A stretch of DNA of 64,000 nucleotides, from the NCBI RefSeq assembly GCF_001949145.1, contig NW_019091362.1:1495838-1559837 (forward strand), written 5' to 3'. The notes under the pieces are model-generated. The model was not told the origin of the DNA, did no database searches, and worked only from the letters and a program-made list of their open reading frames with translations. Positions within the stretch are counted from its first letter, which is position 1; every line of letters begins with the position of its first letter. The stretch is from Acanthaster planci (Eukaryota). Below are positions 1 to 64,000 of the stretch, one piece after another. The position numbers and the translations under genes are program-made.

Positions 1-2011
1 TACCCCTCTTCGCCAGACTACCATCCCACGACTGGAATTAATGGCTGCGCTTATAGCCTCTCGCTTGGCCAAGACGCTTCACACTGAGCTATGAGAAAAG
101 CCACAGGTTCATCTTTGGACTGACGCCCGCATCGTTCTTCTCTGGTTACGGTCTGAATCCATAGATCTCAAGCCTTTCGTAGGAGTGCGTGTTGCAGAAA
201 TACCGTCAACTGGTCTCCAGACCTATGGAATCATGTACCCACAGAATCCAACCCTCCGGGGCCACAGAAGCCAACCCTACGGATGACCTTAGTCGCGGCC
301 TGACGGCCATTGAAATGAGATCACGATTGATCAATGGGCCATCCTTTCTCCGGCAACCAAAGACGGAATGGCCAGCACAAATCAAAGAAAAAGTTACCTT
401 GGAAGATCCGGAGCGGTAAAGGCCGAAGTTAGTTTCTACCGTAGCAGGAGCGAAATCCATCCCCCGATAGAGTGCGTGCGATTTTCAAGCTGGGGAAGAC
501 TGCGTAGGGTTACAGCTCTCTGCCTGCGATTCATTTCAACTTGAAATCCAGGAGACAAGACCAGATGAAAGGAACAGGTGCTCTCGTGCTAGACGAGCTC
601 AAGGACGCTGAAACCTATTGGTTAGTGCAAGCTCAAAAGGATTTGGGAGATTGGTCTATCAGGTGTCGGGATCACACCCCATTTATCGACGAAAATAACC
701 TGATAAGAGTTAGCAGACGACTGAGAAACGCAAGCTTTCCTTATGACGAAATTCATCCCATTCTTCTGCCATCTTCGGGACACATATCCCGACTGATTAT
801 GAAGGATGTCCATAATGCAAGGGCTCATCCAGGAGCGGAGAGAACGTTGAGCGACAGCAGGAGAAAGTTCTGGATTCTCAAGGGACGGAGTCTTGCGAGG
901 GAGGCGGTGAGACTATGCGTGATCTGTCGTAAACTCCGTTAGTCTCCACATGTCACTTTGATGGCAGGAGAAAGTTCTGGATTCTCAAGGGACGGAGTCT
1001 TGCGAGGGAGGCGGTGAGACTCTGCGTGATCTGTCGTAAACTCCGTTAGTCTCCACATGTCACTTTGATGGCTGGTTTACCACCAGAACGTCTGAGAATG
1101 TTTTCGCCACCATTTCCAACCGTTGGCGTTGATCTATTCGGTCCTTTCCAGTTGAAATACGGCTGTAATAAGGCGAAGAAAGCTTGGGCAGCCATATTTA
1201 CTTGTGCCACAGTTCGAGTGATCCACCTGGAAGTAGTAGAGGATCTTTCGACCCAAGCCTCCATGCGTGCTATTCGACGATTTGCAGCACATTATGGTTG
1301 GCCTTCAACACTGATACATATATCTGATAATGGCACTTCCTTCATTGATGCAGAAAAGGAACTCAAGAGGCTGTTCACAGAGAGACGGGAGCTGGAAGAC
1401 TTCGCATTTCTCCACAAATTGAAGACGCGGTTTATCACATCCGTTAGTCCTCATCAGGGAGGATTCTATGAGAGTCTTATTAAGCAAGTGAAAACCGCTC
1501 TGAAAGTTTCAATTTCAGGCCAGATTCTGGCGTGGAATGAAATGACCACAGCCTTCAGTGAAGTGAAAGGTCTTCTTAATTCCAGGCCAATCGGATATTC
1601 ATCTGATGACCAAATGATTTCAGACCTCTTACCCCCAATCATTTCATGATTGGGAGAGCTTCCACAGATACCCCACAAGGTCAGTTCAACGAGACTGGAA
1701 ACTTACACAAACGCTCCGAGTTCATTCAGGGTCTTGTCACGCAATTCTACAGACGCTTCAAAAGGGAATACCTCCACACATTCATGTCCAGACAAAAATG
1801 GCGAAGCGCTGGTCGACAGTGAGCCGTTGGGGATGTCGTGTTGCTCACAGACGACAAGCTCGCCCATGGTAAGTGGAGCATGGCGCTAATCATCGAAGTG
1901 TTTCCTGGAGGTGATGGAATAGTTAGAAACGTCCTGGTAAAGACCCCGTCTGGGGAGAAAAGGTGGAGCGTACAAAAGTGTTGTCTTATCTTGGAGGGTT
2001 GGATTGAATAA
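1..2011 (+). mobile_element. Degenerate BEL/Pao LTR retrotransposon pol 3' part (RNase H C-terminus, HHCC zinc finger, DDE integrase, C-terminal DUF5641-like region), with stops and frameshifts
   Basis: Translated pieces show Pao-type motifs: PRLELMAALIASRL, WTD, NPxDDLSRG, HPILLP..H..HPG..C..C, VGVDLFGP, SDNGTSF, HQGGFYESLIKQVK, LNSRP, FPGGDGIVRNVLVKT. The reading frame is broken several times and no LTR is recognisable before the gap. Confidence 0.9.
857..1072 (+). repeat. 107-bp direct tandem duplication inside the retrotransposon
   Basis: 857-963 and 964-1070 are identical except gactAtgc/gactCtgc. Confidence 0.9.
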
Positions 2012-2463: not shown

Positions 2464-3340
2464 ATTTTCAGAATGTTGTCGTTGTTCCTGTGCGTCAAAT
2501 AAAATAATAATAAAGAAGCAACGATTAGAAGATTCCCGCTTGTATCGTAGTGATGTGGAGTTGCGCTTCTTGTCTGCACCAGGCGGTACAAAACGTTTAT
2601 GTATTGTGATTGTACGTACACACAATGTAGTTGCGCTCGATCTTGCGGTTTTATATAGCGCCCTCAGTGATACCATGCGTCGCGTTGTCGCGTATTGATA
2701 TTTGTAACGCATTATTAACTGTTGCCCGTTTTACAAGTAAATACCTGAAAAATAATTTTCAAAAGTACATTTACACAATTTGGAACTAAGAGAACGTTTT
2801 AGATGTGAATTGTGAAAAGAAACCGAGAGATTCATGGGGAGGATTGCAGTGCGGTGCGTCATTGGCGGATGGAACTCGACCCTTTCCTGTGCGTAAAACG
2901 TCTGTACAAGATGTAAATAATTATTAAATGCAATGACTGGACGCTCGCTGCATGCATGGAGCGCGGATATGGATGCGCTGCTACAATTAAGCTAGTGTTC
3001 GCGTACTACTCTATGTTGATGTGTGCTGTTCACCTCTGAATCGGACTGTCGTAATATAATGATAACTAAAGTGTAGATATTCCGACAGTTCTCCTTTACC
3101 ATGGCATCGTCTGGCACGCTCAACTTGAAGTTGTTGGTACATTTAATCCTCTGCTTGTGTCTCGCATTAGGTAAGAAGTCAGGTCACATTTTGTGTTGGT
3201 ATTCAGATGTCGGTGGATGTTATGTACTATAGGCCGAGGCCTACATACTGTACATGTATAGCCTACCTGCATACTTGGTACGTACGTGTACTGTTACTTG
3301 GCCCACATGCGCGTACCGCCCGCCTGCGCCTGTCCCTAGC
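2464..3340 (+). promoter_or_regulatory. CpG-enriched promoter / 5' UTR region of the type I receptor gene
   Basis: Visibly more CG dinucleotides than downstream introns; surrounds the signal-peptide exon; TSS not defined. Confidence 0.45.
3101..3170 (+). CDS. ALK4/5/7: TGF-beta type I receptor exon 1: signal peptide MASSGTLNLKLLVHLILCLCLAL
   Basis: accATGg context, hydrophobic stretch, AG|gtaag donor in phase 1 matching the phase-1 acceptor at 18964; too short for the ORF track. Confidence 0.75.
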
Positions 3341-23411: not shown

Positions 23412-23595
23412 CAAGAGGTTTCCTTGCTGATGTGTGAGGAGGACCCCAAGGGGCCACCAGAGAGGCGTTTCCCCTGTCAGAACCCCGAGCCCAGCCCCTA
23501 CTACATGTCCAAGTGTTGCGTGGAGCAAGATTACTGCAATCGGGAGCTGATCAAAGACATGCAGCTACTGCCCTTACCTACCTCCCAGCCCACAG
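23412..23595 (+). CDS. ALK4/5/7: Type I receptor exon 3: C-half of ectodomain with Cys box (SKCCVEQDYCN) and P/T-rich stalk
   Basis: cag acceptor in phase 0, G|gtgag donor in phase 1; CCx5CN motif; completes 10 cysteines with exon 2. Confidence 0.9.
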
Positions 23596-24563: not shown

Positions 24564-24725
24564 AATTGTGCAACTTGAAGCCAGATTATGGGGACTGTAC
24601 CATGGAAGCTTTCGTGTGGTACTACAATATCAGCCTTAATGACTGCCGGCAATTTGTGTATAGTGGTTGCGGTGGGAATGACAACAAATTCTACAGCAAG
24701 GGTTCCTGTCTTCGCCGCTGCGAAT
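24564..24725 (+). CDS. ALK4/5/7: Type I receptor exon 4 (probable cassette exon): BPTI/Kunitz domain
   Basis: LCNLKPDYGDCTMEAFVWYYNISLNDCRQFVYSGCGGNDNKFYSKGSCLRRCE; Cys spacing 8-15-7-12-3; ctaat branch site, ttcag acceptor, gtgagt donor; 162 nt, phase 1-1, in frame with exons 3 and 5. Confidence 0.8.
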
Positions 24726-26012: not shown

Positions 26013-26509
26013 AGAGCAACTCGAAGGAAAAAATGTTTTCTCAGATTTTATCTGTTCAAATAAAATATGACAGTGTCCAAATCGAATTGGACGATGTCAT
26101 TCGTCTTCAGAGCTCAAGTATAACAAGCTAAAAAGGGCTTTTTTTCTGTTCATGCCAAGAAAACAGAGAAAACGAGGGGAACCCTCACCTTGTTTTCATA
26201 GTGGATAAATCCTTGTGCATGTCAAACATCGCATGTAGCCATTGTTTGTAGCCATGGTTTGGCATGCACGAGGGTTTATCCACTACGAACACAGGGTTCC
26301 CCTCATTTTCTCTGTTTTCTCAGAATGACACAATCTACATTCATCATGTTCAGAATTTGCATCTTGGCATGAACAGAAAAAAAGCCCTTTTTATCTTGTT
26401 ATAGTTGTTATAGCTCTGAAGACAAACGACACCACGTTCGGTTTGGATGCTTCCATATTTATTTGAAGAGACAAAATCAGAGAAAACATGTTTTCCTTTG
26501 AGTTGCTCT
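26013..26509. mobile_element. Almost fully palindromic MITE with TTAA TSD (Kolobok-like AG termini)
   Basis: TTAA|AGAGCAACTC ... GAGTTGCTCT|TTAA; outer arms 26013-26160/26362-26509 and inner arms ~26161-26230/26255-26320 are reverse complements. Confidence 0.85.
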
Positions 26510-27375
26510 TTAAATGAAGTTATTCTTTAGTGGTCATGTTGTGATGGGCTACTGTATGCCTGACTTAAATACTCCATCATTGGCAGAAAAGAGGCACATT
26601 GGTGGAATTGTTTCATCTTGGCCGTGGCGCACACGCACAGACTGGTTTATTGCACATGTTCAGTGCAGCCCATGCCAAATGCACATAAACTTGTGCATAT
26701 GTACACAGTGAAGTCCACCACCAAAGGACCATCGCTGCCATGTACATGTAAAAGTACACCATTTCTTGTTCCTGCACGGACCGGATGCTGGGCATTAGTT
26801 TACGGGCTTGGCATCCAAATGAGTAATGTTGAATGAGCTGTGTGCACTTTGTGGCTCTCTGGTACTAAACTTCGTAGTGCGCGTGCGTCAGATCTCAGTG
26901 GCTACAGTGTGCTCTGGCGGCGCCAATGAACAGAGTGCAGTGGCTGTGTTCTTGGTCTGAACTTGGGTACACTGGACAAGGATTGGTTGACTATTGCACA
27001 AGGTATCACGTTTGCAGAGGTCGTTGTGTGCCCTGATCAATAAGTTTGCAGGCATATGCACAGGGAGGAGGGACAAAACACAAAGGAAAACTGAAAAATG
27101 GAGCCTCTCTCATTCCAGGAAATTTTATACAATTTGGACGGGAATGAGTTAAAAGTTTAATTTTTTTAGATTGTTGATTTGGGAGGGAAAAATACATCTT
27201 TTCTGAATGTAATCATTTCTCTTTTTTCGAGGGGGTTTCATCATTTGAGTTTGTCATTTTGATTATTTTTCGCAGATGCCGGGTACTTTATTGTCTTTTC
27301 ATGTTGGACTTGTTAGCACTGTGATTTAGTTACGCTGTGAGAGAATGATGTAGTGGTGCTTTCTATTTGTGATAG

Positions 27376-27630
27376 ACTTTAACAGCAAGCCGGACAGCAG
27401 CCCAATATCCATGGTCAACCTGTCGCTAGCCATAGCCATTCCAGTTACCATCATCTGCCTGGCGGCGTTCTTCCTGATGGCGGTACGCTGGTACCTGCTG
27501 CAGAAGTCGGCCCGCCAGTCCATCACGCGCCTGGAGGTGCCGCTGATATCTGGACAAGGCAGCCAGGTCATCCCCATGGGCTGGACACTGAATGACCTCC
27601 ACAACACGGCCACGTCCAGCTCGGGCTCAG
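27376..27630 (+). CDS. ALK4/5/7: Type I receptor exon 5: transmembrane helix, juxtamembrane region, start of GS box
   Basis: LSLAIAIPVTIICLAAFFLMAV TM followed by R/K; TLNDL..TSSSGSG; tag acceptor in phase 1, G|gtaaaa donor in phase 1. Confidence 0.92.
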
Positions 27631-30929: not shown

Positions 30930-31160
30930 GCTTGCCTTTGCTGGTGCAGCGTACCATTGCCCGACAGATCACACTGGTGGATTGCATTGGCAAGGGTCGC
31001 TACGGTGAGGTCTACAAAGGCCGCTGGAGGGGCGAGTACGTGGCGGTCAAAATCTTCTCCTCTCGGGAGGAGCGATCCTGGTTCCGCGAGGCAGAGATCT
31101 ATCAAACGGTCATGCTGCGCCATGAGAACATCCTCGGATTCATAGCTGCAGATAACAAAG
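30930..31160 (+). CDS. ALK4/5/7: Type I receptor exon 6: GS end and kinase N-lobe
   Basis: [62 protein letters not shown]; cag/gt borders; 231 nt. Confidence 0.97.
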
Positions 31161-31318
31161 GTTTGTGTAATCTGTCGCTTTCACGCCTCCAAGGAAAAAA
31201 TATTGCAACAACAGAAAAGATTTTGCAAGCAACACTAAATTCTGTATATTTACTTAGATGAGTTGAAATTTGAAACAAAAATTTCTTATGTATTTTGTGT
31301 CTCGTTCCAAACCTGCAG

Positions 31319-31486
31319 ACAGCGGTATGGTTACGCAGCTGTTGTTGATTACCGACTACATGGAGAACGGTTCCCTGTTCGACTACCTGAATATGACAAC
31401 TCTTGACACGGCTGGGATGATCCGGCTGGCGTACTCGACAGCAAACGGTCTTGCACACCTTCATGTGGAGATTGTTGGAATGCAAG
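31319..31486 (+). CDS. ALK4/5/7: Type I receptor exon 7: L45 loop end, hinge
   Basis: [38 protein letters not shown]; cag/gtcagt; 168 nt. Confidence 0.97.
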
Positions 31487-32152: not shown

Positions 32153-32434
32153 GCAAGCCCGCTATAGCCCACAGGGACCTCAAGAGCAAGAACATCCTGG
32201 TCAAGCGCAACGGTCAGTGCGCCATCGCCGACCTGGGCCTGGCTGTCCGGCACGACTCTGAGCGTGACACGGTGGACATCGCCCCCAACAACCGCATTGG
32301 CACCAAGCGCTACCTGCCGCCGGAGGTACTAGATGACACCATCAATGTCAACCACTTTGAGGCCTTCAAGCGAGCTGATGTGTACTCACTGGGCCTGGTA
32401 TTCTGGGAGATTGCGCGGCGGTGCTCCATAGGAG
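32153..32434 (+). CDS. ALK4/5/7: Type I receptor exon 8: catalytic loop to subdomain IX
   Basis: [54 protein letters not shown]; cag/gtaag; 282 nt. Confidence 0.98.
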
Positions 32435-34230: not shown

Positions 34231-34361
34231 GTATCTATGAAGAGTACAGGTTACCTTACTACGATATGGTACCATGTGACCCGTCCATTGAAGACATGCG
34301 GAAGGTGGTTGTCAATGACCGGCAGCGGCCAACAGTTCCGAACAGATGGAACAATGTGGAG
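34231..34361 (+). CDS. ALK4/5/7: Type I receptor exon 9
   Basis: [44 protein letters not shown] read directly (not in ORF track); tag/gtaggt; 131 nt. Confidence 0.95.
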
Positions 34362-41526: not shown

Positions 41527-41652
41527 CCGCTGCGCGTCCTGGCCAAAGTCATGAAGGAATGCTGGTACCACAGCGCTGCCGCCCGCCTGACGGCACTCCG
41601 CATCAAGAAGACCCTGGACAACCTACGGGTGGCTGAGGACGTCAAGTTATAG
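41527..41652 (+). CDS. ALK4/5/7: Type I receptor exon 10 (last coding exon)
   Basis: [41 protein letters not shown]; pyrimidine tract + aag acceptor in phase 0; 126 nt. Confidence 0.96.
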
Positions 41653-57274: not shown

Positions 57275-58543
57275 GACTACTCCTGCAATATGTGGATTTC
57301 TTGGTGGGTTCTTTCGACAATAATTACACCTGTCATAAGGGAACATTGAACAAATCAGTGATAAGACCTTCATTTCTCCAACTTTTTTTATCATTTTCAC
57401 GTGAAATAGAGCCTCTCAGTTTCTGTAACGTCATACACATCATGATAGCCAAGATAGATACACTGTACAGTCAACACAGCATTATGCTGTGGGCATCAAA
57501 CACCATTGTGCGTACAATGCTGTGACAGCATTACATATGACGATCATATCACTGTTGGCTAGCCAAACTAGCCACTTTGTGAAAAATATGACCAAAACAA
57601 TTTTCCTCAAATCATGCTGAACACATTTTTTTTCAAGTTGAATACACTTATCTTCAATGAAAATACAAGGTGAGATGAAAATCTGTGAGGGAAGAGATCC
57701 AAGTATGGACATCGCCAATTTTCCAAAGTGATTTCTCAGCCACCAGAAAGTGATAATACGGGAAAGAGTTCCATGCCAACTAATGACTTATTAGCTGTCA
57801 GAAAGCAACAATGTAGGAAAAAAAACCCAAGTTGATTATCGTTGATTTACCCTAACGTAGCACAGCCCCTGATGTGGCCCACTTTCATTTCTTGCCTCTT
57901 GTGTCTTACTGGACATGCTGGAGCAATATTTTTACCTCAAATTTCACAATCAGTAAAACTTTATCTAACTCCTATTATTCTGATTCATAAATTGAAATTT
58001 TCGTGTATCTGCTAAAAAGTTCTGATGAAATTTCATTATCACCTGATGTTACAAATTTATTATCACCTGATGTTACGAATTTTTCTGACGCGCAAAATGA
58101 ATGCTTCTAGAATGTGCTCAAAAATATGAAAATAATCTTCTATTTTTCAGACCAGTTACCAGGGGTTTGTCCTTTTCTCAACAAGTATGACAGGCCGGAT
58201 GTCAAGTGATGTCTGTGTTTAGTTTAGAATGCTCTGTCAATGTCATGTCTATGGCCGAAGTTGGGCGGGGCTCTGTTTTCCAGAGCGCGTGTACATGGAG
58301 TACATGTAACATGTATGGGTGTGGGAGAGCCACGGGTAGGGGTTCGTCGTCCGCCGCGCTTCCATGGCATGCATCGAACGTAGCGTGTTGTCCTTGTTAA
58401 AAATAGCAGACGCCGAACTCAAGCGTGTAGGGTACACACGTAAGCCATTAACGCGATCCGCCGTCAAAGATGAGAGTTGTGCGGGACTGTTTCTAGCAGC
58501 TGTCTAAACATACGCCAACATCTGTCCGACGTCATAATCTTAC

Positions 58544-58770
58544 CTTTTTCGAAAGTGCTGATATTTGCAAGAGTTTGGCCCAAGACAGCTTCAAAAATAC
58601 GACAAAAACATGAAAAGTTCTACAGGCGCGGTGGGTTTCGGTGATCTAGTCAGAGACCTGACCCGTCCGTGTGAAACTATCGTTGAGTTCCGTGAATGGC
58701 GCTTGGGTGCTTGTCTTGAACTTGATAAAACTGGCCGCGAGAGGTCGCTCTCCGTTGTGAAAGATGAAGG
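58544..58770 (-). promoter_or_regulatory. Probable non-coding first exon / CpG-rich promoter of the LRR gene
   Basis: AAG|gtaag donor at 58544/58543 on -; CpG-rich; in-frame stop upstream of the junction and no in-frame ATG; GC-box-like GGGGCGTG and GGGGTGGGG at ~58770-58812. Confidence 0.5.
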
Positions 58771-59643
58771 GGCGTGACAAAAGTGGTTAATTTTAAAAGG
58801 GGGTGGGGTGGGTGGTACTGTAACTATGTTCGCATCATTCGAGTGCAGTACCAGTATATAAAGTGCAAATGGGAACAGAAAGAGAAACTGTTTTCCTGAA
58901 ATAGTTTCAGCAAAGTATTTGGCACGATTTGGGTTTTTAAGCAATTCTTCTGGCATCATTTCTAAAAAGAGGACTCACACATACATGTATCTGCATTTTA
59001 CTTTTTGGCTATAATGCATTGCTTCAGTTTGTACAAAATTAATTCAAATTGAAGATGCTGGTAACTACTTTGGGTTTTTAAGGTGAGGGAACCACAGAGG
59101 GACAAGATGACAAACACGAGGGCTATTTCTCTTTCAAAAACTTTGTGAAATTTAAACAAAACATCTTCAAAATTTAGTCTTCTATTGCACTTTCAAAATC
59201 TAAATATTGTACAAAAATCATAGACAATCTAAACAAAAGGTTCCAAGTAAAAAAATAAGACAAACTATCACTGTAGACACTAGACAGTGCTCCTCTCATA
59301 CTCCACTTAAAAACCTTTCTTCGAAACACTCCCCCACAAATGTAGTGCATGAAACCCGAAAAAGGTGTTTCAGATGTGCTATACAAGTATTTCATATTCC
59401 TTTGTGGGATGGATCAAATATCTTTGTGTCAGTCAGTCCTGCTGGTTAATTTCAAAATGTCCAAAAGTTCATGTCAGCGTTAGGGGTACATCTACTGTAA
59501 GTGAACCACTTGATACAGTGTCTGAAAACGTGAAGTTTCTAGAAACTTCAACCTGGAACAGGGCCTTGTTTCGTTTATCTGTGGGTATGCACTCAAACAC
59601 TGGAACAGGCATTCTTTAGGAAAAAAGAAACATAGAGTGCAAA

Positions 59644-59649
59644 TTTATT
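59644..59649 (-). terminator. Probable JMJD4 polyadenylation signal
   Basis: AATAAA on - about 70 nt after the stop codon. Confidence 0.5.
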
Positions 59650-59716
59650 TAATTCACTTCCAACTTGAGTACCCCGAAAGGAAAAGTAGCATATTTGTCA
59701 AGTTTTGAGACCATTC

Positions 59717-60364
59717 CTAAACTAGGCCCTCAGTGACGCAAATAATTTCCCCAATGACCTGCTGTGGATCTACACACAAGCTTCCAGTTTCTAGCCGGCA
59801 AAAATCTTCATTTTCTCTCAGTGATTCCAAGATCATTCCAATACGACACAGATCAAATATCATATGCCATACTGTGGACCATCTGGATGTGGTATCACTA
59901 TCACAGATACATGTACATTCTTCAGAACATGGTGATGAAGGCTGATTTGGGTCAGCACTGCCCGTGTGGTCGTTAGTAGCTCTGTCCATATCACTTGGCG
60001 TAGCTGTTTCATCGGTGTTTGACAGAATTCTTCCTGCACCTCGTGCGCAATGGGAGGACTGCCCCTCCAACTCTACTGTGCCTCGGGAATCTTCAACTGA
60101 AGAAGGTTTCAGGATTTCCCCACTGACAGTAGATTCAACTGTTCTTTCAGGATTTCCTGATGACAATCTTGTATTGAGACCATGAAGCTCCTGGGATCTC
60201 TTGGAGCGATCAAGAGGTTTGTCGGGCTTGCTGTGTCTGCTGTTTGAACATTTTCTTGAGCTCTCACTGTAAAGCCGCAATTGGTCAAGACGAGGCTCAG
60301 CCACTGTCCACAGCAACTGCAAGAATTCTGGGTAGTCTATTCCAGTGTTGGCTTTCATTATCAT
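59717..60364 (-). CDS. JMJD4: JMJD4 last coding exon
   Basis: ttcag acceptor in phase 0; IMKANTGIDYPEFLQLL..RL and HMIFDLCRI match JMJD4 C-terminal helices as recalled. Confidence 0.8.
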   Translation of the reverse strand: MIMKANTGIDYPEFLQLLWTVAEPRLDQLRLYSESSRKCSNSRHSKPDKPLDRSKRSQELHGLNTRLSSGNPERTVESTVSGEILKPSSVEDSRGTVELEGQSSHCARGAGRILSNTDETATPSDMDRATNDHTGSADPNQPSSPCSEECTCICDSDTTSRWSTVWHMIFDLCRIGMILESLRENEDFCRLETGSLCVDPQQVIGEIICVTEGLV

Positions 60365-60485
60365 CTGAAATCATATACGGACGAAAACAGGGCTATAACA
60401 GTGGCAGAAGGTCAGTGCAGAGACAACACAAAGAAACTCCATCATGGCTTTAAGCCTGCGTCAATTATGTAGGAGCTAAGAATAA

Positions 60486-60989
60486 AGCCTGGATTCCAAA
60501 TCAACACAGAGATGCAAATAGCATCACTGATCAGTTCCCCGATGATATGCAATCATATGGGAATGCTTTTTCGCAACCGACGCAAACAGGGACGGCGATA
60601 GTCGGTGAAGTTGAAGCCTATTCTAGTGACTATGTTGAGGCACCAGAATAGGCCTGTACAAATACACATGCTGGTATGATGGATGTACAACAATGCCTTC
60701 CTTGAATAGTACCACTCATTTTGCCCATTTTCTTGTTACTAACATAGTTGTATGTTGCCCCAATTTTAGACAAAATAGCTGACCATAAACAAAACCCATT
60801 AAAGTGGCATATCATTTTGGCTTCAAGAAGCAGTATTTCTGCCTAAAACAGCATATTCATTTTATGTTTCCGACACCATTTTGTAAAACTTTTTCCTGAA
60901 ATGACGTCACGGTGTCTCTTCCATGACTGACTACTCGTTACTGTCTTGCATGCTGTCAGTGTTCGTTACGGCTATATGGAAACCAGGCT
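60486..60989. mobile_element. PIF/Harbinger-type MITE with TAA TSD
   Basis: TAA|AGCCTGGATTCCAAAT ... ATATGGAAACCAGGCT|TAA (14/16 complementary). Confidence 0.75.
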
Positions 60990-61560
60990 TAAATCTTTGC
61001 CTTGTGAATGGACAACTAGAGCTCAGTTGTATTGGCCTAAAGACAGAACAGTGTAGTTGTAAAATACATGTACTATGTGGCTTGCCATCGAGAGAATGGT
61101 AGAGTGAGAAAGCCTGCAAGAATCGATAGCAAAATTAATGCAAACAAAATAGTGGGATTTTTAAATACTTTAACACTGTTTAAGACTTTAGAAGTAGGTC
61201 CTGAAGACTGCAGTTTCAAGGACTACCTGGCACTGTAGGTCTGAGGCCTACCTGACATTTGTAGGTCTGAGGCCCACTGAACACTGTAGGTTCTAGGCCA
61301 ACATGATGATGGGGTCAAAGGCCTATATGAAGCTGTGGGGAGGGGGGGCTGTGGGAGCCTACCTCCAAAATTGTATGCCCTCCCCCTTCAAAAAAATGCA
61401 AAAATAAAAAAAGGCTGGAAAATATTGGATTTGCAATAGCAAATGTTAAAAGGTCATGTCACATGCAAAGGGCCTAGCATCCCCCAACAATTGACTCTAG
61501 AACCGTGCCTGGTCCGAGGCCTGCCTGACACTACAGGCCCACTTGACGCCCTAGGCCTAC

Positions 61561-61704
61561 CTGACACTGCAGGTCCCAGCCCTCCATATCTCTGCAGTCA
61601 CTAATGGACTTCTTGACCAAAGCCAGTTCTTGTTGCAAAAATGCCCAGGTGATGTCCAGATTACATCCATTCAGCCAATTGTGGTTGATAGAGATAGTAT
61701 CTTC
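61561..61704 (-). CDS. JMJD4: JMJD4 exon
   Basis: EDTISINHNWLNGCNLDITWAFLQQEL..ISDCRDMEGWDLQCQ; cag/gtagg; 144 nt, phase 0-0. Confidence 0.93.
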
Positions 61705-61897
61705 CTGTAAAATCAAGGAAGTAACCGACTCAGTACTGGTGCATGATTTCACCCAGTGCACTACTTTAATGGAAAATTCTCTTTAGACTTATGAGTATTT
61801 AGCTGACAACCAACTTTGGCAAGAACCAAGAAAGAATTTAAAGGATTCTTTTAAGCCTGCTGTTGGAAAAAATGGGTGTTTAAAAATGGAAACTTAC

Positions 61898-62165
61898 AAT
61901 GTTAAAAACTTGGTGATGCCATCCACTCGGTACAAAAATAACCTCGCCTGGCTCCTGAATGACCTCAAATGGCTTGCAGGCTTTGTGGTAATCGGGATAT
62001 TTATTTGGATTGTGTAGTTCAGGAGAGGTGGCATCGTACACCAGATTGCCCAAGACATCCCTGAGGCAGTCCTCCTGACCCGGGGGGTACAGAAGCCATC
62101 TCTTGCGGCCGCAGACGTTTGCCGACCAGGAATAGGAGCGGAAAACGTCAGCATGGAAAGGGGTC
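61898..62165 (-). CDS. JMJD4: JMJD4 JmjC catalytic exon
   Basis: TPFHADVFRSYSWSANVCGRKRWLLYPPG..QEPGEVIFVPSGWHHQVFN; Fe(II) triad HxD...H intact; cag/gtaag. Confidence 0.95.
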
Positions 62166-63272
62166 CTGTGTTTAGAAAAGAAAATCAAAATTGAAGCTTG
62201 CCGCTGGGCTGCGATAGATACCTGGAAACTTAATACGTCATGAAAATTGGCGGGTATCTGGATTTGTCTTGTTTGGTTTTATATCACGTGAAAGGTAGAA
62301 CAATTTGCAGGGAATCTCGTGACACAAGCGATATATCTACGATATTGTTTTGCTCTTTTTTGGTTTTAAAGAAAACTACCTTCCCATGGAAACTTTGCTG
62401 TCCAGAAATTGGCCACTCTGGCAATTCCCTATAAGTACATGTAGATAATTGTATCTATCCTTGCAGGTGACTTGCCGCAATGTATCGACATGTAACCACC
62501 TGCCAGGTGTCAAACGACCCCATGATTAGAAACTACAAACCCTAACCACTAGGCTGCATGTTCCTTAATAGACCACGACAATGTGGTAGGCCCACATCCG
62601 CAGCCAATAAGCCCCAGCTGCACAGGGCACCTGATGCTTTGTTTCTCTTTTCCACACATTTATGGGTTAAATTTCAACTTTTGAACACTAAAGACATCCC
62701 AATATGTATTCCTGGGCACCTATGTCTCAGATGTAGTTTCTCATTGACTAAATGATTGCTCAAAAAAAAAAAAAGGACCCTTTAACCCCAAGTGCCCTAC
62801 GTGCACTCAGGTCAAAACACCTGCCATTGTAGTATTTAATACACCTGTAGAATCAGAGTTGTATATTGCAATTAGATGTTCCCTTAATAAAAATAGACCA
62901 TACGTTTACTGCATCTGATTTAGGCTACTGCAAAAACCACAGGTGAGATTAAGGAATGAAGAGAATTTTGAAATAAAGACAGCAATAAAATAAAAACTTT
63001 GCAATAAAAACGGGGGAGGGTTTACACGCTAACATGACATGAATTTTATGCCTAATGTCTATGCTAAACAGAATCTCACACATGTTTATATGTACAGAGA
63101 GCGAAGAAATAGCAAAATTTGAATAATTAAATCTCTAAAAAGTCTAGAATATGGGAACAAAAATCTACAAATTGGGTAAAACTTGAGAAATCACATTCAT
63201 GCAGGAGGTTTTTGAGCAAAGTACTGAAGAGTCCAGAGTTGAGGAGTATCTTGCAGTGTGTGTATTACTTAC

Positions 63273-63407
63273 CAAGAACCCTTAGGGCCCATGTAGACAA
63301 AGCGGTAGTCGTCCGATGTCTGGCCGGGCCTTTTGTCCCAGTACTCGTTCATCCAGTCAGATGTGAAAAAGACAGGTGTCCTGTAAGCCTTGTAATCTGG
63401 GAAGGAT
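63273..63407 (-). CDS. JMJD4: JMJD4 exon (earlier exons lie outside the window)
   Basis: SFPDYKAYRTPVFFTSDWMNEYWDKRPGQTSDDYRFVYMGPKGSW read directly; cag/gtaag; phase 2-2, joins the exon at 62165. Confidence 0.93.
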
Positions 63408-64000
63408 CTGTGTTTGGTTTGCGGAAAGGAAAAACCACAGTTGATAGATTATTAGACTGGGGGCCGAAGGAAGGGGTGAGTGGTGAAGTACATTTACCCT
63501 GTATGTTATGGTAATCTAATAAATCACACGGGGAAACCGAAGGGGTTGGACAAAGACTATCTTTGAATAACTGAACCTCTCTGCCATGTCCATCATTAAT
63601 TCTGGTCTAACCCTTGCATAAATGGAACGTATGTGTTAAAATGGCTGGTGCGTGGCAACCCTGCATAAAAGCTGAGTTCGGGCGGCTTGTTCCCGTATGT
63701 TCACGAACAGCTCAATTTGTTGTTCGTGGGTTGGCTGCTTGAACGCTAGGAACAAATAACCGGTTATCGCTGGTAGTTAGTGACAAGCAACATGCAACAT
63801 GGCGCCGTCCATGTAGGCTACGTTAACCCTCTTAGAATTAATGTTTGGATGGGCTGAATTCTTTTCTATATGAACAGGAACATTCATTTCTGTGTTACAG
63901 AAAATTATTAATGTTGATTTTGTAAAACGTCCCATTGTCTATGGCTTTGGAAGCCATCTCTCTACTTTTTGCAGCCGTTCAAAAATCAAAATCTCACGAG

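What the first reader, a model, noticed from the sequence alone, without database searches (positions are those of the whole stretch)
24564..24725. Kunitz protease-inhibitor domain built into the ectodomain of a TGF-beta/activin type I receptor
Seen: an intact 54-codon exon with all six Kunitz cysteines (spacing 8-15-7-12-3) and the FVYSGCGGNxNxF signature lies on the same strand between the Cys-box exon (ends 23595, phase 1) and the TM exon (starts 27376, phase 1). It has a branch site, acceptor and GTGAGT donor, and no start, signal peptide or partner exons of its own. Established: type I receptors (ALK1-7, Babo, Tkv, Sax) normally have only one three-finger Cys-rich domain and a short stalk outside the cell; Kunitz modules are classic phase-1 shuffled exons. 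Inference: the gene encodes SP-CRD-Kunitz-TM-GS-kinase (581 aa), an architecture I do not know from any characterised type I receptor. It could link pericellular proteolysis (ligand activation, ectodomain shedding) to Smad signalling, or alter receptor geometry and co-receptor binding.
Basis: partly seen in the sequence, partly recalled or inferred. Interest (0 to 1): 0.92.

Follow-up and report, generated by a model that had tools for sequence, protein, structure and literature searches.

The report
Starfish TGF-beta receptor carries Kunitz module
The starfish receptor of the Nodal/Activin/TGF-beta type (ALK4/5/7) has an extra, spliced-in Kunitz domain just outside the membrane, shared by all five echinoderm classes and missing in the acorn-worm and chordate relatives examined, and it likely acts as a sugar-bearing spacer rather than a protease inhibitor.

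Summary
Confirmed. Exon 24564-24725 encodes a Kunitz domain (Pfam E 6e-17) and is spliced into a ten-exon gene whose exons give exactly the 581-aa Acanthaster planci RefSeq protein XP_022109707.1. RNA reads cross both junctions (34 and 40 reads in four runs, against 59 for the next junction); no skipping junction was listed. The same layout (ligand-binding domain, Kunitz, membrane helix, GS box, kinase) occurs in 13 named species of all five echinoderm classes, in one clade (100/98) inside ALK4/5/7; three hemichordates, amphioxus, vertebrates and protostomes examined lack it. A published paper states that the sea urchin has a single Alk4/5/7, the Nodal receptor, so this is that receptor, not a spare paralogue. 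The protease-inhibitor idea is weak: the binding loop is no more conserved than between unrelated Kunitz domains, P1 is never Lys/Arg (0 of 15), while an N-glycan site is kept (13 of 15; 6 of 178 in background). A Lytechinus RefSeq isoform skips the exon. The layout sits in automatic annotation; I found no paper discussing it (seven searches, key subscription papers unavailable). This scan found the same feature earlier in a sea urchin genome (e1-7909033).

The parts
3101..3170 (+). Exon 1 coding part: start codon and signal peptide (aa 1-23), phase 1
   Evidence: tblastn and exact match to P0002
18964..19100 (+). Exon 2: first half of the Cys-rich ligand-binding domain (aa 24-69), phase 0 end
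   Evidence: spliced reads to exon 3 and contig of X1; PF01064 on aa 35-114
23412..23595 (+). Exon 3: second half of the Cys-rich domain with the Cys box, and Pro/Thr-rich stalk (aa 70-130), phase 1 end
   Evidence: junction reads
24564..24725 (+). Exon 4: Kunitz/BPTI domain (aa 131-184), symmetric phase 1-1 exon with N-glycosylation sequon on the beta-hairpin
   Evidence: PF00014 E 6.2e-17; both junctions read in RNA; two variants seen in reads are both synonymous
27376..27630 (+). Exon 5: juxtamembrane stalk, transmembrane helix, start of GS box (aa 185-269)
30930..31160 (+). Exon 6: GS box end and kinase N-lobe up to the L45 loop (aa 270-346)
31319..31486 (+). Exon 7: kinase (aa 347-402)
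   Evidence: spliced reads
32153..32434 (+). Exon 8: kinase catalytic loop and activation segment (aa 403-496)
   Evidence: spliced reads
34231..34361 (+). Exon 9: kinase (aa 497-540)
41527..41652 (+). Exon 10 coding part: kinase end and stop (aa 541-581)

Best explanation
This gene is the starfish ALK4/5/7-type TGF-beta family type I receptor, its mRNA includes a Kunitz exon between the ligand-binding domain and the membrane helix, and that Kunitz likely works as a folded, probably N-glycosylated spacer that does not inhibit proteases. Shown: the splicing, the layout in all five echinoderm classes, and orthology to ALK4/5/7. Inferred: one phase-1 exon insertion into the stalk intron in the echinoderm stem; the module roughly triples the stalk (83-92 aa against 33-36 aa in hemichordates and amphioxus), which would lift the ligand-binding domain away from the membrane and could aid folding or surface delivery, so tuning how the receptor meets ligand, type II receptor and the Cripto co-receptor. 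Signalling inside the cell would be ordinary GS-box phosphorylation and Smad2/3 activation.
For: Splicing. Spread: 23 of 267 kinase-bearing proteins held had a Kunitz match (55-94 bits; the other 244 at most 1.4 bits), all named echinoderms or unnamed Logan proteins that group with them; 11 of the 120 best hits carry PF00014 and they are ranks 1-11; 1 of the 150 best 50%-cluster representatives has both domains. Orthology: 12 Kunitz-bearing kinases form one clade (100/98) inside the ALK4/5/7 clade (100/99); PMC11239237 (passages) states that the sea urchin has a single Alk4/5/7. Constraint on the fold: six cysteines in 15 of 15; identity 79% to Patiria against 45% in the next stalk segment; both variants in reads are synonymous; model with beta-hairpin and C-terminal helix, pLDDT 66-87 by block, low-confidence linkers on both sides. 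Against inhibition: P1 is T, D, N, P, G, S or E, Lys/Arg in 0 of 15 (65 of 178 background domains); P1' is Ala/Gly in 0 of 13 non-crinoid sequences (109 of 178 background); P1-P4' identity between classes 15% against 12% among unrelated domains. For a glycan: sequon at one hairpin position in 13 of 15 against 6 of 178. Stalk lengths.
Against: No function was measured; glycosylation and the spacer role are inferred. Both crinoids lack the sequon. Loop sequence predicts inhibition poorly (PMC2740865, passages), and the first domain of the inhibitor SmCI has Thr at P1 like the starfish domain. A pure spacer could be any folded or mucin-like segment, so keeping this fold for the whole phylum may point to a specific partner. 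The Lytechinus variegatus RefSeq isoform X2 lacks exactly these 54 aa, so a receptor without the module can be made, and one starfish run covered the exon poorly.
Confidence: 0.6

Rival explanations
1. The Kunitz is a specific docking site for a partner (co-receptor such as Cripto or Betaglycan, an extracellular-matrix protein, an endocytic receptor, or a second copy of the receptor), with the contact surface drifting together with its partner in each class; exon skipping would switch the interaction off.
For: Retention in 13 named species of five classes; a few non-framework positions are enriched over background (Gln at BPTI 31 in 7 of 9 against 8%; acidic 42 in 8 of 9); skip isoform annotated in Lytechinus; precedent of the APP Kunitz cassette affecting trafficking (PMC10796103, passages).
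Against: Between-class identity (43%) equals that of unrelated Kunitz domains (42%), and net charge ranges from +2 to -7, so no conserved binding patch stands out.
Confidence: 0.22
2. The Kunitz is a tethered serine-protease inhibitor that protects the receptor from shedding or controls local activation of ligands.
For: Intact Kunitz fold with all six cysteines and the Gly-Cys-Gly framework; best solved-structure matches include active inhibitors such as SmCI, boophilin and bikunin; membrane-anchored Kunitz inhibitors exist (HAI-1/2; PMC12940448, search listing and abstract start only).
Against: P1 takes seven different residues, including Pro, Gly, Asp and Glu, and is never Lys/Arg (0 of 15); P1' is bulky in all 13 non-crinoid sequences; three sequences have a one-residue insertion in the loop; loop conservation is at background. 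P1, P1', P2' and P4' are the main protease contacts (PMC2740865, passages).
Confidence: 0.11
3. The exon is a neutral passenger: inserted once, tolerated, and kept folded only because unpaired cysteines would harm the receptor.
For: Conservation is limited to the fold; a skip isoform is annotated in one species.
Against: A symmetric in-frame exon can be lost at no cost to the frame (skip product 527 aa, open), yet all 13 named echinoderm species with a model held here keep it, and inclusion dominates in starfish reads.
Confidence: 0.05
4. The exon belongs to a separate nested transcript or is a gene-prediction artefact.
For: One of four runs had no Kunitz-to-TM junction read; the contig run X1 listed no Kunitz junction.
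Against: Both junctions are read in raw RNA from three studies; unnamed Logan contigs of 2.1-3.7 kb encode the whole receptor with Kunitz in one frame; a GenBank protein, AIQ77880.1, is identical to the Kunitz-including Lytechinus isoform.
Confidence: 0.02

Closest known systems
ALK4/5/7 (ACVR1B, TGFBR1, ACVR1C; arthropod Babo; hemichordate and amphioxus TGFBR1-like)
   Same: Cys-rich ectodomain with Cys box, one TM helix, GS box, kinase 72-76% identical to solved ALK5 kinase structures; nested in the ALK4/5/7 clade.
   Different: A 54-aa Kunitz domain in the stalk (stalk 83-92 aa against 19-36 aa); the starfish L45 loop departs from the usual group consensus in its second half.
Sea urchin Alk4/5/7, the Nodal receptor (Paracentrotus, Strongylocentrotus, Lytechinus)
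   Same: Orthologue with the same layout. The Q265D activating site of the Paracentrotus cDNA (PMC2772021, passages) matches positions 269-271 of Kunitz-including urchin proteins, not 217 of the skip isoform, so the cDNA used in those experiments likely included the Kunitz.
   Different: The papers I could read do not mention the domain (0 occurrences in PMC2772021, PMC4564238, PMC11239237; figure S2 legend of PMC2772021 names only TM, GS box, L45 loop and the cysteine pattern; the figure itself was not seen). Urchin proteins have a Pro-rich C-terminal tail that the starfish protein lacks.
APP751/APP770 Kunitz (KPI) cassette exon
   Same: A single Kunitz exon, alternatively spliced, in the ectodomain of a type I membrane protein, affecting transport to the surface (PMC10796103, passages).
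   Different: APP is not a receptor kinase, and its KPI is an active protease inhibitor with a conserved basic P1 (recalled).
Non-inhibitory Kunitz modules (collagen VI alpha3 C5; TFPI third domain)
   Same: Kunitz fold without inhibitor activity (collagen VI: PMC2740865); both rank among the best single-domain matches (1knt E 1.4e-10, 1irh E 2.2e-11; that 1irh is the non-inhibitory third TFPI domain is recalled).
   Different: Those sit in secreted or matrix proteins, not in a signalling receptor kinase.

Membership tests
TGF-beta family type I receptor | Cys-rich ectodomain with Cys box (PF01064) | tested here: met
   PF01064 on aa 35-114, 21.2 bits against cut-off 20.9, E 5.7e-4; pLDDT 85-96 over most of the domain
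TGF-beta family type I receptor | Single TM helix followed by GS box (PF08515) and Ser/Thr kinase | tested here: met
   PF08515 E 1.3e-12 and PF00069 E 4.2e-35; helix 197-232; Foldseek best hits ALK5 kinase, rmsd 1.3 A
ALK4/5/7 (Smad2/3 branch) | Kinase groups with ALK4/5/7/Babo, apart from ALK1/2 and ALK3/6 | tested here: met
   clade of 32 rows, 100/99; outgroups were unnamed representatives assigned by L45 motif
ALK4/5/7 (Smad2/3 branch) | L45 loop of the ALK4/5/7 consensus | tested here: inconclusive
   first half (DNKD) matches; second half is SGMV in sea stars against NGTW in urchins, brittle stars and vertebrates
ALK4/5/7 (Smad2/3 branch) | Binds Nodal/Activin/TGF-beta and activates Smad2/3 | not testable with these tools
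   shown for the sea urchin orthologue in PMC2772021 and PMC11239237 (passages); not tested in starfish
Kunitz/BPTI domain (PF00014) | Six cysteines at Kunitz spacing, beta-hairpin and C-terminal helix | tested here: met
   117 solved Kunitz sequences matched at E <= 0.001
Active Kunitz serine-protease inhibitor (MEROPS I2) | Conserved P1 fitted to a protease pocket and small P1' | tested here: not met
   P1 of seven kinds, Lys/Arg 0 of 15; P1' Ala/Gly 0 of 13 non-crinoid, 2 of 2 crinoid with a loop insertion
Active Kunitz serine-protease inhibitor (MEROPS I2) | Measured inhibition of a protease | not testable with these tools
   needs an assay

The most novel reading that the evidence does not exclude
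Echinoderms rebuilt their only Nodal/Activin/TGF-beta type I receptor with a splice-switchable Kunitz module that sets which ligands and co-receptors it can use, or how far Nodal spreads, so that one receptor gene does the work that vertebrates divide among ALK4, ALK5 and ALK7; the change arose at the base of the phylum and was never lost.
Probability: 0.25. Interest if true: 0.87.

Novelty: new variant of a known kind. Interest (0 to 1): 0.66.

Why it matters
Type I TGF-beta receptors have a very stable domain layout across animals. An added folded domain, fixed across a whole phylum and absent in its sister group, is a rare molecular character of echinoderms, and it sits in the receptor that sea-urchin developmental biology has used for two decades to study Nodal axis patterning, apparently without comment in the papers I could read. 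Models of Nodal, Univin, Panda, Lefty and Cripto action at this receptor assume a vertebrate-like ectodomain. The question is directly testable with existing morpholino-rescue and CRISPR tools by deleting one in-frame exon.

Tried and rejected
No whole genome was held, so a second, Kunitz-less ALK4/5/7 gene in Acanthaster could not be searched directly; none appeared among echinoderm hits. No indexed holder run was on record as RNA: no RNA holder listed, not used as evidence. In one search only 15 of 91 joints were shown, crowded by intronic repeats, so the second junction needed. The ESM Atlas gave no usable hit. A first structure model from 8 sequences was unusable (pLDDT 39.6); 110 sequences gave 84.5. 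A complex prediction for self-association of the ectodomain gave no verdict, so dimerisation through the Kunitz stays open. dN/dS could not be computed, as no orthologous DNA was held. The kinase tree left hemichordate-echinoderm sisterhood unresolved, so a single gain in the echinoderm stem rests on the distribution, not on a resolved root; 41 of 290 proteins were used, one chosen outgroup was dropped because its anchor motif was not found. A secreted form by read-through of the exon-4 donor (frame open to 24751) has no support: depth just after the exon is what the exon's last 21 bases would give. Two papers asked for by recalled ids were not held. A look-up of earlier findings by sequence returned nothing.

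Full report
Observation. The exon at 24564-24725 is as described: 162 nt, flanked by AG and GT, phase 1 on both sides, encoding a Kunitz domain (PF00014, E 6.2e-17). The six-cysteine spacing occurs once in the window and in 0 of 200 shuffles. A search with the Cys-box exon found a 581-aa protein identical over the query, XP_022109707.1 of Acanthaster planci. Ten exons of the window, from 3101 to 41652, translate exactly to it, so the RefSeq model already includes the Kunitz.

Splicing. In three raw RNA runs of three studies the joint 23595->24564 had 8, 6 and 13 reads, level with the upstream joint 19100->23412 (7, 11, 12); only 15 of 91 joints were displayed, and the contig run X1 listed no Kunitz joint. 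In four further runs of the same three studies, at stricter likeness, all 7 listed joints were shown: 23595->24564 had 1, 9, 13, 11 reads, 24725->27376 had 0, 4, 10, 26, and 27630->30930 had 5, 11, 18, 25; no joint skipping the exon was listed (threshold 3 reads from 2 starts; 18-24% of each run read). Inclusion is therefore the main form in these samples. Run X14 covered the exon poorly, so low-level or tissue-specific skipping is open. The two base variants seen in the exon are synonymous.

Spread. Searches with the Kunitz-TM-GS region and with an eight-sequence profile and cluster look-ups gave the same layout in 13 named species: sea stars (Acanthaster, Patiria, two Asterias), a brittle star (Amphiura), sea urchins (two Diadema, Strongylocentrotus, two Lytechinus), a sea cucumber (Holothuria leucospilota) and feather stars (Anneissia, Antedon). 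Of the 120 best hits listed (of 2559 passing), 11 carry PF00014 and hold ranks 1-11; rank 12 is the Lytechinus variegatus isoform X2; the other 108, among them three hemichordates, amphioxus, vertebrates, molluscs, a nemertean and arthropods, carry none. A Kunitz profile run over all 290 proteins held found it in 23 of the 267 with a strong kinase match, all named echinoderms or unnamed Logan proteins that group with them; the other 244 scored at most 1.4 bits. Of the 150 best representatives from the exhaustive search, only the Patiria protein has both domains. These searches list best hits only, so an independent Kunitz gain in a distant receptor is not excluded.

Orthology. A kinase tree of 41 proteins puts the 12 Kunitz-bearing sequences in one clade (100/98) inside the ALK4/5/7 clade (100/99), apart from ALK1/2 and ALK3/6 outgroups, which were unnamed representatives assigned by L45 motif. 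[quoted passage not shown] PMC2772021 (passages) calls it the Nodal receptor and makes the activated form by Q265D; the matching Gln is at 269-271 in Kunitz-including urchin proteins, 217 in the skip isoform and 199-218 in receptors without Kunitz, so the experimental cDNA likely held the domain. That mutant is constitutively active and says nothing about what the Kunitz does. The GenBank protein AIQ77880.1 is identical to the including isoform X1 of L. variegatus; that it is the clone of Piacentino et al. 2015 is recalled. Isoforms X1 and X2 differ by exactly 54 aa at this place, so the exon is the same symmetric cassette in urchins, and RefSeq annotates a skip form there. The simplest history, inferred, is one phase-1 exon insertion into the stalk intron in the echinoderm stem, at least about 480 million years ago (date recalled).

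What the domain does. The fold is kept: six cysteines in 15 of 15 sequences, 79% identity to Patiria against 86% for the ligand-binding domain and 45% for the next stalk segment, and a model with the Kunitz hairpin and helix set off by low-confidence linkers. The protease-binding loop is not kept. P1, P1', P2' and P4' are the main contacts (PMC2740865, passages). P1 is T, D, N, P, G, S or E and never Lys/Arg (0 of 15; 65 of 178 in background domains taken from the multi-Kunitz representatives). P1' is Ala/Gly in 0 of 13 non-crinoid sequences (109 of 178 background); the two crinoids have Gly but also a loop insertion. Between classes, identity over P1-P4' is 15% against 12% for unrelated domains, and 43% against 42% over the whole domain (nine sequences of canonical spacing, crinoids and one Logan protein left out for their insertion). 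The one clear family-specific feature is an N-glycosylation sequon on the hairpin, in 13 of 15 against 6 of 178. The module lengthens the Cys-box-to-TM distance to 83-92 aa from 33-36 aa in hemichordates and amphioxus. I therefore favour a non-inhibitory, glycosylated spacer that changes receptor height, folding or surface delivery (0.6), over a specific docking module (0.22), a tethered inhibitor (0.11), a passenger (0.05) or an artefact (0.02). Against my reading: crinoids lack the sequon, an active inhibitor domain with Thr at P1 exists (SmCI), and PMC2740865 warns that loop sequence predicts activity poorly.

Comparison and novelty. The protein is a member of the ALK4/5/7 type I receptors by domain content, structure and tree; the Kunitz is a member of PF00014 but fails the sequence test for an active inhibitor. 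The nearest precedent for the arrangement is the APP Kunitz cassette (PMC10796103, passages). The layout is present in automatic annotation (RefSeq and UniRef records with precomputed PF00014), which lowers novelty in the database sense. Seven full-text searches of the held library for Kunitz with TGF-beta receptor, Alk4, Nodal, echinoderm, starfish, sea urchin, sea cucumber or amphioxus terms listed no paper that describes it; five echinoderm papers searched for the word had 0 occurrences (PMC2772021, PMC4564238, PMC11239237, PMC12295056, PMC8605306; passages only). Subscription papers that first described the urchin receptor were not held, and supplementary figures, notably figure S2 of PMC2772021, were not seen; they may mention it.

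Verdict. Real, expressed, phylum-wide and apparently undiscussed: a new variant of a known receptor, in a heavily studied developmental pathway, with a cheap decisive test. The likely mechanism is modest, which keeps interest at about 0.66.

Noticed in passing
window 31140-31340 (exon 6/7 junction, L45 loop): The L45 loop, which sets Smad choice, is DNKDSGMV in all three sea star genera, DNKDSGIS in two crinoids and DNKDNGLC in the sea cucumber, against DNKDNGTW in urchins, brittle stars, chordates and protostomes. Some changed positions are ones needed for Smad2/3 activation in ALK5 (recalled), so Smad specificity in these classes deserves a test.
   Followed up: partly
P0140 / P0022 (Lytechinus variegatus XP_041481444.1 and XP_041481451.1): RefSeq lists isoforms with and without exactly the 54-aa Kunitz exon; read support for the skip form was not checked.
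   Followed up: partly
P0003 / P0005 (Patiria miniata): The two Patiria isoforms differ by one residue at the start of the Kunitz exon, as from a tandem splice acceptor.
   Followed up: no
window 24564-24725, run X14: One RNA run covered the Kunitz exon far less than its neighbours (bin depth 0.13 against 2.2-4.3); small numbers, but a possible sign of skipping in one sample type.
   Followed up: no
P0013, P0019, P0133, P0140 (sea urchin orthologues): Sea urchin Alk4/5/7 proteins carry a Pro-rich C-terminal tail of about 50 aa after the kinase, ending in a PxY-like stretch in several, absent from the other classes.
   Followed up: no
P0131 (Holothuria leucospilota KAJ8019706.1, 1008 aa): The GenBank model has a long insertion resembling a reverse transcriptase inside the kinase, probably a mis-joined intronic retroelement; the Logan protein P0020 of the same cluster is a normal 568 aa.
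   Followed up: no
window 57415-56624 (- strand): A single open frame of about 260 codons made of leucine-rich repeats (PF13855 E 2e-33), just downstream of the JmjC gene.
   Followed up: partly
window about 58000-63600 (- strand): Exons of a JmjC-domain gene (PF13621, PF02373), JMJD4-like by recall.
   Followed up: partly
window 95-2008 (+ strand): Frameshifted retrotransposon remains with integrase zinc-binding and core domains, about 1.1 kb upstream of the receptor's start codon; a run of 338 N follows at about 2125-2465.
   Followed up: partly
window about 26050-26520 (intron 4): A high-copy repeat with inverted arms, heavily covered by reads from other loci; probably a small transposon.
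   Followed up: no
P0047 (Branchiostoma lanceolatum TGFBR1): The GS-box motif appears twice in tandem in this amphioxus model.
   Followed up: no
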